Source: a virus (Duplodnaviria; Heunggongvirae; Uroviricota; Caudoviricetes). From it: a stretch of 31,107 nt of DNA. Location of the stretch: IMG/VR virus record IMGVR_UViG_2693429768_000006, one strand, 5' to 3'. The translations under genes were made by a program, and so were the position numbers. Shown in pieces: positions 28,579-31,107 of this stretch. The notes under the pieces are model-generated. The model was not told the origin of the DNA, did no database searches, and worked only from the letters and a program-made list of their open reading frames with translations. Positions within the stretch are counted from its first letter, which is position 1. Every line of letters begins with the position of its first letter.

Positions 28579-29046
28579 TTATTTCAGGCACTGAGTGCGG
28601 ATATATTCCTGCGCCACTTCCAGCTGCTTCTGCATCAGCATCAACCGCTCTCTGAGAGTGAAATAATCCCGTTCAGCGGTGTCTGCCAGTCGGGGGCCGG
28701 TTGCATTATCCACGCCGGAGGTGGTGGGGGCTTCACGCACGGTACCGGGGCAGGTGGCGTTGATCCGCAGGCGCTTACGACCAGCGGCAACGTCAGCGCG
28801 CAGAGTTTCATTTTCAGCTCTCGCATCGGCTAATTCCCTCGAGTATCTGGCATCAAGTGCAGCAACATCACGCTGGCGCTGCTGCATATCAGTAATGGTT
28901 GCATTTGCCTGCTCCAGCTCACTGACTTTTTTATCGCGCTGCTCTTTGTAGGTTATGGCGTTATCACGGTAATGATTCAGCCCCAGACTAAGCGCACCAC
29001 AGGCCACCAGCAGGGCAATGATGACCACGCACAGTACGCGGTTCAT
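28579..29046 (-). CDS. Rz: i-spanin Rz
   Basis: 155 aa; N-terminal TM then NHYRDNAITYK...RLADTAERDYFTLRERL matches lambda Rz. Confidence 0.95.
   Translation of the reverse strand: MNRVLCVVIIALLVACGALSLGLNHYRDNAITYKEQRDKKVSELEQANATITDMQQRQRDVAALDARYSRELADARAENETLRADVAAGRKRLRINATCPGTVREAPTTSGVDNATGPRLADTAERDYFTLRERLMLMQKQLEVAQEYIRTQCLK
28641..28826 (-). CDS. Rz1: o-spanin Rz1 (lipoprotein) embedded in the +1 frame of Rz
   Basis: 61 aa; lipobox VVSAC then a proline-rich segment and CVKPPPPPAWIMQP...DWQTPLNGIIS matching lambda Rz1. Confidence 0.9.
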   Translation of the reverse strand: MRELKMKLCALTLPLVVSACGSTPPAPVPCVKPPPPPAWIMQPAPDWQTPLNGIISLSESG

Positions 29047-29047
29047 T

Positions 29048-29185
29048 TCACCACCAGCGTATCTGACCGATGAAATAACCGGAGGCCATAATCACAAACA
29101 CCAGCCAGATAAGAATGAACTTCCAGGTGGATAATTTTTCAGCCATCACTCGAATCTCCCGAATCAGTTTGCTAAAATCAAACAC
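29048..29185 (-). CDS. candidate 45-aa single-pass membrane protein, translationally coupled to Rz
   Basis: GTG start at 29185 preceded by AGGAG at 5-nt spacing; product MFDFSKLIREIRVMAEKLSTWKFILIWLVFVIMASGYFIGQIRWW has a 20-residue hydrophobic stretch; stop is 1 nt before the Rz ATG. Confidence 0.4.
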   Translation of the reverse strand: MFDFSKLIREIRVMAEKLSTWKFILIWLVFVIMASGYFIGQIRWW

Positions 29186-29221
29186 ACTTTCTCCTTTGAC
29201 TTTTCCAGAGTCAGGAAACAC

Positions 29222-29257
29222 AAAACCCCGCTTGCAGCCAACAAACGGGGTTTTTAC
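29222..29257. terminator. bidirectional terminator-like hairpin between R and the small ORF
   Basis: AAAACCCCG ... CGGGGTTTT stem with T-runs on both sides. Confidence 0.4.
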
Positions 29258-29344
29258 TTTTATTCACTTAGTTTTTGTCAGTTCGCAGGATTTCGTGTTA
29301 TCCGTCCGTGTAAGCAAACCGCATTTTTCAGCAAAATATTCTGC

Positions 29345-29878
29345 TTATCTGTCGATACCCCAGCACGCCAGCGCGCTCTCCTGGTCACGACGGGATACCT
29401 GACCGTAGCAGTTGTTTGAACGAATACGGCAGTCTCTGCCACCGTCCTTAATCCACCAGCGAATCGCCTCACACGCTCCCCTGCGATCACCTGCATTAAT
29501 TCGTTTATAAAACGTCGACGGGAAACACTTACCGGGACCAATGTTGTACGGACAGAATGACGCGATCCCCGCTTTCTGGGGTTCGCTCAATGGCACTTTG
29601 ATGTTTTTCTCCACCCATGCCAGCGCCTTATCACGCTCAATGGCGTTAACCCGGTCGCATTTTTCCTTCGACAACTTCATGCCCGGAACGACAGGTTTGC
29701 CATCCACCAGGATGGCACCGCGGCAGATGGTCCAGATACCCGCGCCATCACGGTATGCCGTGGTGTGGTTACCTTCCTTTTCATCCAGAAACTGGTCGAG
29801 AATGTCAGGCGCAGGCGCACCAGCGGCAATCAGCGCCAGAACGGCAGCCGACAGGCCGTATCTGATTTTTGCGTTCAT
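29345..29878 (-). CDS. R: SAR-type endolysin (GH24, T4-lysozyme-like)
   Basis: 177 aa; N-terminal weakly hydrophobic Gly/Ala-rich stretch (LSAAVLALIAAGAPAP) typical of a signal-arrest-release domain; catalytic E-x8-D-x5-T spacing in EGNHTTAYRDGAGIWT. Confidence 0.85.
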   Translation of the reverse strand: MNAKIRYGLSAAVLALIAAGAPAPDILDQFLDEKEGNHTTAYRDGAGIWTICRGAILVDGKPVVPGMKLSKEKCDRVNAIERDKALAWVEKNIKVPLSEPQKAGIASFCPYNIGPGKCFPSTFYKRINAGDRRGACEAIRWWIKDGGRDCRIRSNNCYGQVSRRDQESALACWGIDR

Positions 29879-29983
29879 GGATATTTATCAGGATTTATCG
29901 GTTTCTGAGCCCTGGATATGTTTATCAGTTCCAGCCTGTTGCCTCAGGCTGCTAACAGGTCAATACAATCATGAGGATTATTT

Positions 29984-30256
29984 ATGGACAATAACACCAT
30001 TTCTCTACAGGAGTTGCTCGACAGCATTTCCAGGCTTCGGGAAGACGTGAATACCCTTACCGTCGCCTTCTCATATCTGGCATTCTCAATTCCAAGGGAA
30101 CAGATGCAATCAACGCTGGCATCAATCCAGTTTGAATCATGCAATCCCAAATGGTCTCAGGAACAACAAGACTCTTTCAGGCGGCTTGCTGTATTACTGG
30201 ATGAAAAATATGCTGGTAAAATTACCATTTCGGCGGACTCTTCAGAGAACCCGTAA
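29984..30256 (+). CDS. hypothetical protein (90 aa), plus-strand moron inside the lysis cassette
   Basis: ATG at 29984 preceded by GAGGA at about 9-nt spacing; lower GC than neighbours; only plus-strand ORF with a credible start in the late region. Confidence 0.4.
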   Translation: MDNNTISLQELLDSISRLREDVNTLTVAFSYLAFSIPREQMQSTLASIQFESCNPKWSQEQQDSFRRLAVLLDEKYAGKITISADSSENP

Positions 30257-30566
30257 TTATTCCCGGTAGTTTTCCTCTGTAGGTTATCAACACATCCTGC
30301 GCCTCTAAAATTACGGGGCGCTTTTCCGGCGACTGCTCATCCCCTTCACATAACCCGGCAGCAACATCCAGGAAGACCTGTCTGATGCTCCTTCTGGCTG
30401 CTGCCTCATAAAACTCCAGCGCGGCACCTTCAACACGGTCCAGCGAGATGTCCAGGTCAAAAATTTCACCGTCAAAGCGTTTTTTGTCCCGTAACGCTAA
30501 AGTTACCGTAACTTTATTCTCAAAATTGCGGATCCCTTTCACAATCAGTTCATAGTTTTGAGTCAT
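30222..30566 (-). CDS. hypothetical protein between holin and endolysin (position of ydfR in Qin-type lysis cassettes)
   Basis: 114-aa ORF starting 4 nt after the holin stop with GGGGAGAG SD inside the holin 3' end. Family not recognised; ydfR-like assignment is by position and memory only. Confidence 0.6.
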   Translation of the reverse strand: MTQNYELIVKGIRNFENKVTVTLALRDKKRFDGEIFDLDISLDRVEGAALEFYEAAARRSIRQVFLDVAAGLCEGDEQSPEKRPVILEAQDVLITYRGKLPGIITGSLKSPPKW

Positions 30567-30570
30567 TGAA

Positions 30571-30786
30571 TTACTCTCCCCGTGCAGCCTTACGACGGTC
30601 CTCTCTGATTTTGAAATACAGGTTAGTCAGATATGTCAGCAGCCCAAACAGCAGACTCCCCAGCACGCCTATTGCCGCCCACTGAGACGGGGAAACCCTG
30701 TCCAGCAACTGCAGGAACCAGTAGCCCGTTCCCACCGCTGACGTGGTGTATGACACACCTGTTGTGATTTTTTCCATCTGGTACAT
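30571..30786 (-). CDS. S: phage-21-type pinholin (S21 family), dual-start motif M-Y-Q-M
   Basis: Product ...[68 protein letters not shown] is near-identical in its core to the S21 holin as recalled; two in-frame ATGs at 30786 and 30777; GGGAGA SD. Confidence 0.85.
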
Positions 30787-30821
30787 ACCCCGTCTCCCGT
30801 TATCCGGAAGCTGACAACAAT

Positions 30822-30851
30822 AAAAAAAGCCACCAGTTAAGTACTGATGGC
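30822..30851 (-). terminator. tR'-like rho-independent terminator just upstream of the holin gene
   Basis: Minus strand reads GCCATCAG-TACTTAA-CTGGTGGC followed by a 7-U run (8-bp stem, one mismatch). Confidence 0.5.
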
Positions 30852-31107
30852 TCTGATAACTCATGCAGGCATCTCAGACGACCCACTGACACTACCGGTG
30901 AGTTTAACGATACCTTCCATTTGACTGGCTCACTTTTTATGATGATGCTGGTGCATTTATCTCCAGCACCAGACTTTCTATCTCAACGCCATACGCTGCA
31001 TTTTTGGTAATATCCGTCAGCGTCAGCGCATTCAGCCCCAGTGTCAGACTGTCTTTTATGACCTGGAATGCCGGGCCAGCCACTCCATTCAGTTTCGGAG
31101 TAACCGT

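What the first reader, a model, noticed from the sequence alone, without database searches (positions are those of the whole stretch)
29984..30566. Two convergent, 3'-overlapping genes interrupt the holin-endolysin pair
Between the pinholin (ends 30571) and the SAR endolysin (starts 29878) are a 114-aa minus-strand gene coupled to the holin stop and a 90-aa plus-strand gene with a good SD. The two overlap by 35 bp at their 3' ends, and the plus-strand gene is transcribed against the late operon. The 114-aa gene occupies the slot held by ydfR in the Qin lysis cassette (from memory). The plus-strand ORF has no counterpart I can recall, and its antisense placement could modulate lysis-gene expression or mark an independently expressed moron.
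Basis: partly seen in the sequence, partly recalled or inferred. Interest (0 to 1): 0.5.

Follow-up and report, generated by a model that had tools for sequence, protein, structure and literature searches.

The report
Reverse-strand accessory gene paired with ydfR
Between the holin and endolysin genes of this E. coli prophage sit two real genes, a YdfR-family gene and a backwards-facing 90-codon gene, and together they form a little-studied two-gene cassette that looks like a prophage weapon with its own late-made antidote, though that function is untested.

Summary
ORF90 (29984-30256, +) and a 114-aa YdfR/DUF1327 gene (30222-30566, -) converge and overlap by 35 bp, between an S21-type holin and a SAR endolysin.

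ORF90 is a genuine protein gene (phrog_2411; PGAP "hypothetical protein"). Only its frame is open in all 12 diverged relatives, and homologues down to 26% identity align without gaps in the core. It is optional: 1116 of 5426 complete E. coli genomes carry it. Other phages have holin-ydfR-endolysin without it, or carry an unrelated 79-aa reverse gene in the same slot.

Phage-borne relatives in Citrobacter, Yersinia, Serratia and Atlantibacter lie in lysis, tail, terminase-proximal or immunity regions. In most they oppose the neighbouring genes. All converge on, and 3'-overlap, a small gene whose C-terminus carries the motif (I/L)TG(S/D/E)L..P. That motif is the tail of this window's YdfR.

The layout matches Tab/anti-Tab of Pseudomonas phage JBD26, an 83-aa reverse gene with a 47-bp 3' overlap, but there is no sequence homology.

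Best reading: a prophage-expressed effector plus a late-expressed neutralising tail. Neither expression nor function has been tested. A lysis-specific antisense role is unlikely.

The parts
29984..30256 (+). ORF90: a 90-aa acidic (pI 4.5), non-membrane, three-helix protein of family phrog_2411 (RefSeq WP_000369850.1, 'hypothetical protein'). It is transcribed against the late operon.
30222..30566 (-). YdfR-family (DUF1327) gene of 114 aa, closely following the holin stop. It consists of an N-terminal beta-beta-beta-alpha domain (about residues 1-75) and a C-terminal tail.
   Evidence: Qin YdfR binds the RNase E N-terminal half and co-purifies with RNA (PMC13232886).
30222..30338 (-). The YdfR C-terminal tail (residues 77-114 plus stop): ..VLITYRGKLPGIITGSLKSPPKW, basic (pI 9.4). 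It matches the C-terminal motif of the small partner genes that accompany phage-borne ORF90 relatives.
   Evidence: (an HMM of non-E. coli tails ranks this ORF first of 682 six-frame segments, E=0.022).
30222..30256 (.). The 35-bp convergent 3' overlap of the two coding regions. The ITGSL codons (30243-30257) lie over the last codons of ORF90.
   Evidence: The overlap is 35 bp wherever a convergent partner ORF was found (about 80 of 83 E. coli-type copies) and 4-47 bp in distant copies.
29908..29983 (+). The cassette-specific 5' flank of ORF90. It holds a conserved block CCCTGGATATGTT (29910-22, containing a -10-like TATGTT), a hairpin CAGCCTG-ttgcct-CAGGCTG (29932-51) and the SD GAGGA (29973-77). 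Homology to phages that lack ORF90 ends at 29907.
   Evidence: Its role as promoter and leader is inferred, not shown. The simple promoter scan found nothing here.
30571..30786 (-). Context: S21-type class II holin (pinholin) of 71 aa, with dual start MYQM.
29345..29878 (-). Context: SAR-type phage lysozyme (endolysin) of 177 aa.

Best explanation
ORF90 is a real accessory gene (moron). The layout and flank suggest it is expressed on its own, but that is untested. Together with the C-terminal tail of the YdfR-family gene it forms an old, mobile, convergent two-gene cassette. Shown here: both genes are conserved at the protein level, and the ORF90 family is confined to Enterobacterales. Every phage-borne copy examined has a small convergent, 3'-overlapping partner, most of them with a (I/L)TG(S/D/E)L..P C-terminus. 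The pair turns up at several unrelated positions in temperate-phage genomes. In E. coli the partner tail is fused to the DUF1327 domain of the lysis cassette. Inferred mechanism: the pair works as a 'noncontiguous operon' like Tab/anti-Tab. ORF90 would be made from its own promoter in the lysogen and act as a small effector, most plausibly against superinfecting related phages. On induction, Q-antiterminated late transcription would run head-on through ORF90, damping it by collision and antisense RNA. The same transcript would produce the basic tail-bearing partner, which binds and neutralises the acidic ORF90 protein so the prophage does not harm itself. Confidence by layer: about 0.9 that this is a real coding gene in a conserved two-gene cassette; about 0.7 that it is an accessory moron rather than a lysis function; about 0.4 for the effector-plus-late-neutraliser mechanism; about 0.25 that the effector is specifically anti-phage. 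The overall figure of 0.4 refers to the mechanism.
For: Coding. Optional insertion with a GC dip. Alternative reverse-strand gene in the same slot. Cassette in other contexts, always with a convergent overlapping partner. Shared tail motif; the window and Citrobacter differ at ITGSL by four nucleotides, all synonymous. Chromosomal stand-alone homologues (Sodalis, P0083) have no partner; likewise only prophage copies of Tai carry Ati (PMC11364771). The tail without ORF90 is about 4.5 times commoner than ORF90 (5459 against 1222 places), as expected for an antidote worth keeping alone. Charges are complementary, and the tail is low-confidence and strand-prone when modelled alone. Precedent: in JBD26, atab (+) and tab (-, 83 aa) converge with a 47-bp overlap inside the late operon, and anti-Tab binds Tab. 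Related cases are phi80 Tai/Ati and 80alpha Tha/Ith.
Against: There are no expression data for either strand. The simple sigma-70 scan found no promoter upstream of ORF90, and no significant terminator was found. There is no sequence or fold similarity to Tab, Tai or any PADLOC family, and the three-helix model matches nothing specific. The tail motif is short and its statistical support is modest (E=0.022 in a 682-segment search). The motif is clearest in the E. coli, Citrobacter and Yersinia partners and weak or differently placed in others (L012, L014, Serratia type). In the Serratia-type loci the neighbouring genes do not all run the same way. YdfR with the tail but without ORF90 is the majority state in E. 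coli, so the tail may have another primary role.
Confidence: 0.4

Rival explanations
1. ORF90 partners with YdfR in RNA metabolism. ORF90 would bind the YdfR tail to switch the RNase E- and RNA-binding activity of the DUF1327 domain, tuning decay or processing of late or host mRNA. It would not be a defence and antidote pair.
Confidence: 0.15
2. The role is at the RNA level. The ORF90 promoter and transcript exist mainly to regulate the lysis cassette by convergent transcription or by a 3' antisense duplex with the ydfR-R message, as with lambda cII/oop, and so set lysis timing.
For: The transcription units converge with a 35-bp overlap inside the late operon. Antisense interference is documented for Tha/Ith and Tai.
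Against: The protein sequence is under purifying selection and is conserved down to 26% identity. The same pair sits in tail, terminase-proximal and immunity regions, so it is not tied to lysis. Most E. coli prophages with the same S-ydfR-R genes lack ORF90.
Confidence: 0.1
3. It is a toxin-antitoxin or addiction-type pair. One product would harm the host and the other neutralise it, stabilising the prophage or causing abortive infection.
For: Convergent, 3'-overlapping pairs on prophages are typical of some type I TA loci (my own knowledge of txpA/ratA and par/Fst). The Tab authors themselves note that defence and counter-defence pairs resemble addiction modules. Orphan 'antidote' tails are common.
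Against: Neither protein is a small hydrophobic toxin: the highest 19-aa Kyte-Doolittle mean is 0.75. Both partners are conserved proteins, not an RNA antitoxin. There is no hit to any TA or defence model. Stand-alone chromosomal ORF90 homologues exist without a partner.
Confidence: 0.1
4. ORF90 is a chance ORF, or the antisense shadow of a minus-strand gene.
For: The wobble-coincident antisense frame shows an even lower apparent dN/dS (0.09-0.21), and a 68-aa minus-strand ORF exists at 29944-30150.
Against: That antisense frame carries 1-4 stops in 11 of 12 diverged loci, whereas the sense frame is always open. Distant protein homologues keep the same length and a gapless core.
Confidence: 0.02

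Closest known systems
Tab / anti-Tab of Pseudomonas aeruginosa phage JBD26 (PMC10884400)
   Same: A small reverse-strand gene (Tab is 83 aa, ORF90 is 90 aa) sits inside the late operon. It converges on, and 3'-overlaps, a small co-directional gene (47 bp in JN811560; 35 bp here). That co-directional gene is closely coupled to the preceding late gene. Both elements are optional morons.
   Different: There is no detectable homology (hhalign probability 0.13). Tab always lies between terS and terL, whereas this pair lies in several different slots. Here the partner is a C-terminal tail fused to a DUF1327 domain. Tab's activity (tape-measure recognition, tail-assembly block, binding by anti-Tab) is demonstrated; nothing is demonstrated for ORF90.
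Tai / Ati of E. coli phage phi80, a 'noncontiguous operon' (PMC11364771)
   Same: A reverse-strand, prophage-expressed gene interrupts the Q-dependent late operon of a lambdoid E. coli phage, next to a small late-operon gene whose product neutralises it. Copies outside prophages lack the antidote.
   Different: Tai is 204 aa and unrelated (hhalign probability 0.4). The tai and ati genes are divergent with 5' overlap, not convergent with 3' overlap.
Tha / Ith of Staphylococcus aureus phage 80alpha (PMC11087260)
   Same: Expression of a defence gene and its inhibitor is made mutually exclusive by head-on transcription of overlapping opposite-strand units.
   Different: The polarity is reversed (there the inhibitor is the antisense gene, within the cI operon). 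Tha is a HEPN RNase. The proteins are unrelated.
YdfR of the Qin prophage (DUF1327, PF07041)
   Same: The 114-aa gene belongs to this family and occupies the same position between a class II holin and the lysozyme.
   Different: According to PMC13232886, K-12 YdfR (103 aa) has a helical C-terminus instead of the ITGSL tail, and megablast homology to K-12-type ydfR stops before the tail and ORF90.
Classical lambdoid morons (bor, lom, HK97 gp15) as defined by Hendrix and colleagues
   Same: An extra gene lies between genes that are adjacent in related phages, and it has a deviant base composition.
   Different: This is a two-gene unit with a conserved overlap. It is inserted in reverse orientation. 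Its promoter and terminator are not established.

Membership tests
YdfR / DUF1327 (PF07041) | Significant match to the Pfam model above the gathering score | tested here: met
   E=7.3e-43, 145 bits against a cut-off of 25, residues 1-111.
YdfR / DUF1327 (PF07041) | Position between a class II holin and the endolysin of a lambdoid lysis cassette | tested here: met
YdfR / DUF1327 (PF07041) | Binding to the N-terminal catalytic half of RNase E, as reported for Qin YdfR | not testable with these tools
   Reported only in PMC13232886.
phrog_2411 (ORF90 family) | Full-length match to the family profile | tested here: met
   E=1.1e-58, residues 1-90 against profile positions 1-90 of 90.
Tab/anti-Tab | Sequence homology to Tab | tested here: not met
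   hhalign of the ORF90 profile against JBD26 Tab gave probability 0.13.
Tab/anti-Tab | A small reverse-strand gene inside the late operon, convergent with and 3'-overlapping a co-directional small gene that is coupled to the preceding late gene | tested here: met
   Window. JBD26.
Tab/anti-Tab | [quoted passage not shown] | tested here: not met
   Here it lies between the holin and endolysin genes. Elsewhere it lies between tail genes, near a terminase gene or in the immunity region.
Tab/anti-Tab | Own promoter and constitutive expression from the prophage | tested here: inconclusive
   A conserved -10-like block lies upstream, but the promoter scan found nothing there and no RNA data are available.
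Tab/anti-Tab | The partner protein binds and neutralises the effector, and the effector blocks tail assembly | not testable with these tools
Tai/Ati (phi80) | Sequence homology to TaiEcA | tested here: not met
   hhalign probability 0.38.
Moron (Hendrix definition) | Present or absent between genes that are adjacent in related phages, with a deviant composition | tested here: met
Moron (Hendrix definition) | Flanked by its own promoter and terminator | tested here: inconclusive
Type I toxin-antitoxin with 3' overlap | A small hydrophobic membrane toxin and a non-coding antisense RNA antitoxin | tested here: not met
   There is no hydrophobic segment of transmembrane length. Both partners are conserved proteins.
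Known anti-phage defence families (PADLOC-DB v2.0.0) | Match to any model | tested here: not met
   No hits for ORF90, YdfR, three distant homologues or two partners.

The most novel reading that the evidence does not exclude
ORF90 and the ITGSL tail would be a previously unrecognised family of prophage defence and counter-defence, widespread in E. coli. The antidote would be a short C-terminal peptide that can be grafted onto different carrier proteins: DUF1327 in the lysis cassette, coiled-coil mini-proteins elsewhere. The effector would be controlled by a structured 5' leader that is not in Rfam. The many 'tail-only' ydfR genes in Stx and other lambdoid prophages would then be orphan antidotes that let those phages infect ORF90-carrying lysogens.
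Probability: 0.25. Interest if true: 0.75.

Novelty: new member of a known kind. Interest (0 to 1): 0.55.

Why it matters
About a fifth of complete E. coli genomes carry ORF90, and about half carry a ydfR with the matching tail, including Stx-phage-rich O157 strains. Neither has an assigned function. If the pair is an effector and antidote of the Tab/Tai type, it adds a new, very small and very common module to prophage-prophage competition in E. coli. It would also give part of the long-unexplained ydfR gene a purpose, and would predict which lambdoid phages can superinfect which lysogens. The experiments are simple: plasmid expression of a 90-aa protein, plaque assays, and two-hybrid tests. 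If the function is something else, the conserved convergent overlap is still a compact case for studying head-on transcription inside a Q-antiterminated operon.

Tried and rejected
- Sequence searches against the PDB, NCBIfam, Pfam and PADLOC gave nothing for ORF90.
- hhalign of the ORF90 profile was negative against Tab, TaiEcA, the Perceval 79-aa protein and the extra C-terminal domain of the 176/183-aa YdfR variants.
- Rfam gave nothing above threshold at the locus or in the leaders.
- The simple promoter and terminator scan found no site serving ORF90.
- A candidate plus-strand terminator hairpin in ydfR (30299-30325) was not in the MFE structure, and the region folds no better than shuffles (z=-1.37).
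- The 5' flank as a whole also folds no better than shuffles (z=0.19).
- A proposed leader pseudoknot (UCAGCC:GGCUGA) has invariant pairs only, and two sequences break one pair, so there is no covariation evidence for it.
- dN/dS alone could not identify the coding strand, because the wobble-coincident antisense frame scores even lower. The stop-codon count settled it.
- Broad alignments were too divergent for the search for related loci. The narrower one found a single Yersinia locus in each of two collections and nothing in metagenomes.
- Literature searches for the RefSeq accessions and for 'ybl58' found nothing.
- The LF82 transcriptome paper does not mention ydfR, the endolysin or this slot.

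Full report
**Observation.**
- ORF90 runs 29984-30256 on the + strand, with GAGGA six nt upstream of its ATG.
- A 114-aa ORF runs 30222-30566 on the - strand. Its ATG lies four nt after the holin stop.
- The two 3' ends overlap by 35 bp.
- The flanking genes are an S21-type class II holin, a phage lysozyme with an N-terminal SAR-like segment, and Rz with an embedded Rz1.
- The holin is the 71-aa form with a dual start (30571-30786). The 97-aa ORF would include a terminator-like hairpin, and PGAP annotates the short form.
- The window is a lambda-like prophage whose late genes all lie on the - strand.

**Identity of the two genes.**
- The 114-aa protein is a YdfR/DUF1327 family member (Pfam E=7e-43).
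- ORF90 has no Pfam, NCBIfam, PDB or PADLOC match. It matches phrog_2411, of unknown function, over its full length.
- RefSeq annotates ORF90 as the hypothetical protein WP_000369850.1.

**ORF90 is a real coding gene.**
- A single-sequence search found 62 relatives and a profile search 77. All are in Enterobacterales apart from one partial hit labelled Pseudomonas, which is probably contamination.
- An exhaustive search of 1.8 billion representatives added members at 26-42% identity.
- Lengths stay between 79 and 106 aa, and the core aligns without gaps.
- dN/dS between E. coli variants is 0.19-0.33. The wobble-coincident antisense frame scores even lower, which is a known artefact.
- The stop-codon count settles the strand. 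The sense frame is open in all 12 diverged loci, while that antisense frame has 1-4 stops in 11 of them.

**ORF90 is optional.**
- ORF90 DNA occurs at 1222 places in 1116 of 5426 complete E. coli genomes. Only 3 of 50,697 deposited phage records carry any family member.
- Phages such as vB_EcoS-611R1 and the O157 prophages have holin-ydfR-endolysin with only a 50-63-bp spacer and no ORF90.
- Phage Perceval carries an unrelated 79-aa reverse-strand ORF (phrog_21218) in the same slot, found in 103 genomes.
- Phage phiSTEC1575-Stx2k has holin-ydfR-ORF90 followed by a different lysis module.
- GC falls to 41-44.5% over ORF90 and its 5' flank, against 55% in the endolysin and Rz genes.
- Homology to ORF90-less phages breaks at 29907/29908.

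**The pair is a conserved cassette.** I looked up the genomic context of the distant homologues.

| Source | Insertion position |
|---|---|
| Citrobacter | upstream of a holin |
| Atlantibacter and metagenome contigs | between tail genes M and L, or H and M |
| Yersinia | between tail genes I and J |
| Unassigned contig | next to terminase genes |
| Serratia-like phages | near cI, N or RecT |

- In most of these the gene opposes the surrounding operon. In the Serratia-type loci the neighbouring genes run both ways.
- In every phage copy where enough sequence was available, the gene converges on, and overlaps by 4-47 bp, a small ORF of 46-85 aa.
- Most of those partners have a coiled-coil-like N-terminus (MTLEQRVEILE..).
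- Many end in ..(R/K)(I/L)TG(S/D/E)L..P followed by about 3-7 residues.
- The window's YdfR ends ..GIITGSLKSPPKW.
- The motif is clearest in the E. coli, Citrobacter and Yersinia partners. It is weak or differently placed in the L012, L014 and Serratia-type partners.
- An HMM built only from non-E. coli tails ranks the YdfR ORF first among 682 six-frame segments of the window (E=0.022; the next best is 0.76).
- The ITGSL codons of the window and of Citrobacter differ at four nucleotides, all synonymous.
- Among 83 E. coli-type copies, ORF90 pairs with a tail-bearing YdfR at a constant 35-bp overlap wherever a partner ORF could be called (all but two or three loci). The same tail is joined to different DUF1327 N-domains.
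- The tail itself is commoner than ORF90: 5459 places in 2613 genomes.
- Chromosomal homologues in Sodalis and in the P0083 group stand alone without a partner.

**The 5' flank.**
- The E. coli, Atlantibacter and Citrobacter copies, and the H-M copy in L118, share a block (C/T)CCTGG(A/T/C)TATG(T/A/G)T upstream of the gene. It contains a -10-like hexamer. L117 has a diverged version.
- Seven distinct distant loci (L005, L007, L012, L014, L098/L109, L117/L118) and the unrelated Perceval ORF (L003) share a leader: UCAGCC, a variable hairpin, then a hairpin with the conserved loop GAUGGCUGAUUAAC.
- Five of six stem pairs of that last hairpin change on both sides, and several pairs are G-U, which favours the plus-strand RNA. 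One caveat: I derived the structure from these same sequences.
- The motif is not in Rfam.
- The window keeps only a simpler hairpin (29932-29951), and the region as a whole folds no better than shuffled sequence.
- The promoter and leader roles are inference.

**Structures.**
- ORF90 models as a three-helix bundle (pLDDT 81) with a disordered C-terminus. It has no specific structural neighbour.
- YdfR models as a beta-beta-beta-alpha domain (pLDDT 65-85) followed by a low-confidence, strand-prone tail.
- ORF90 is acidic (pI 4.5) and has no membrane segment. The tail is basic (pI 9.4).

**Literature.**
- A 2026 study reports that Qin YdfR residues 1-72 bind the catalytic half of RNase E and that the protein co-purifies with RNA (PMC13232886).
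- Three 2024 papers describe prophage defence genes paired with late-expressed antidotes in overlapping opposite-strand units: Tab/anti-Tab (PMC10884400), Tai/Ati (PMC11364771) and Tha/Ith (PMC11087260).
- In the JBD26 record, atab (+, 83 aa, coupled to terS) and tab (-, 83 aa) converge with a 47-bp overlap. This is the same layout as here.
- ORF90 shares no detectable homology with Tab or Tai.

**Interpretation.**
- Firm: ORF90 is a real accessory gene. Together with the YdfR tail it forms a conserved convergent cassette that has moved between many phage positions.
- Probable: it is not a lysis function.
- Inferred by analogy, and from the distribution of stand-alone and orphan forms: a prophage-expressed effector that is silenced by head-on late transcription and neutralised by the late-made tail.
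- Rival readings remain open: YdfR/RNase E modulation, pure antisense control, and an addiction module.
- No expression, interaction or phenotype data exist for this family, so the mechanism stays a hypothesis.

Noticed in passing
L005 3917-4003; L007 3924-4003; L012 760-823; L014 381-458; L098 2378-2462; L109 2420-2503; L117/L118 upstream of 973/1461; L003 2048-2136: The 5' leaders of distant ORF90-family genes, and of the unrelated Perceval 79-aa ORF, share a motif: UCAGCC, a variable hairpin, then a hairpin with a covarying stem (5 of 6 pairs change on both sides, with several G-U pairs) and a conserved loop GAUGGCUGAUUAAC, 15-35 nt before the ATG. It is not in Rfam. It may be a new cis-regulatory RNA or a protein-binding site.
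   Followed up: partly
L003 (phage Perceval, OV696612) 2134-2373 +: An unrelated 79-aa reverse-strand ORF (phrog_21218) fills the same ydfR-endolysin slot and overlaps a ydfR with a different tail (..NSSDNSITGC) by 4 bp. It is unannotated in the phage record, annotated as hypothetical in RefSeq, and present in 103 E. coli genomes. The slot is a hotspot for alternative reverse-strand genes.
   Followed up: partly
Proteins P0115 (176 aa) and P0143/P0172 (183 aa): Common YdfR variants continue past the ITGSL tail into an extra helical domain of about 65 aa (..SEDEKKRRDEQFAAFYDYCIEVTRRNF..). That domain is not homologous to ORF90. Their genomic context was not examined.
   Followed up: partly
window 30787-30864 and 30826-30854 (-): The longest holin ORF (97 aa, from 30864) is an overcall. 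A 12-bp-stem hairpin with a T-run on the late strand lies inside it, just upstream of the true 71-aa S21-type holin with its dual start MYQM.
   Followed up: yes
window 29047-29344: The endolysin and Rz genes are separated by about 300 bp. This gap holds a 57-aa minus-strand ORF with a hydrophobic segment (29048-29221). RefSeq annotates two or three tiny hypothetical genes in the equivalent region (L106 4825-5173). A weak hit to the rimP leader (29189-29278, E=0.04) is below the gathering score and is probably chance.
   Followed up: no
L099, L100, L111-L116 (Serratia-like prophages): Here the ORF90-type cassette lies in the early or immunity region. In L111-L116 it sits between cI plus rex-like genes and an 87-aa gene (followed by N in L111 and L113). 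In L099 it sits next to a RelA_SpoT-domain gene and RecT. The 5' leader is different but keeps a GCCUG..CAGGC hairpin.
   Followed up: partly
L095 5429-5526 (-), Citrobacter freundii prophage: An Rfam hit above the gathering score to the Hfq-binding sRNA isrI (51.7 bits against 45), about 1.7 kb from the cassette.
   Followed up: no
window 28641-28826 (-): An Rz1-type lipoprotein ORF (..LVVSAC.., proline-rich) is embedded in a different frame within Rz (28579-29046), as expected for a lambda-type two-component spanin.
   Followed up: no
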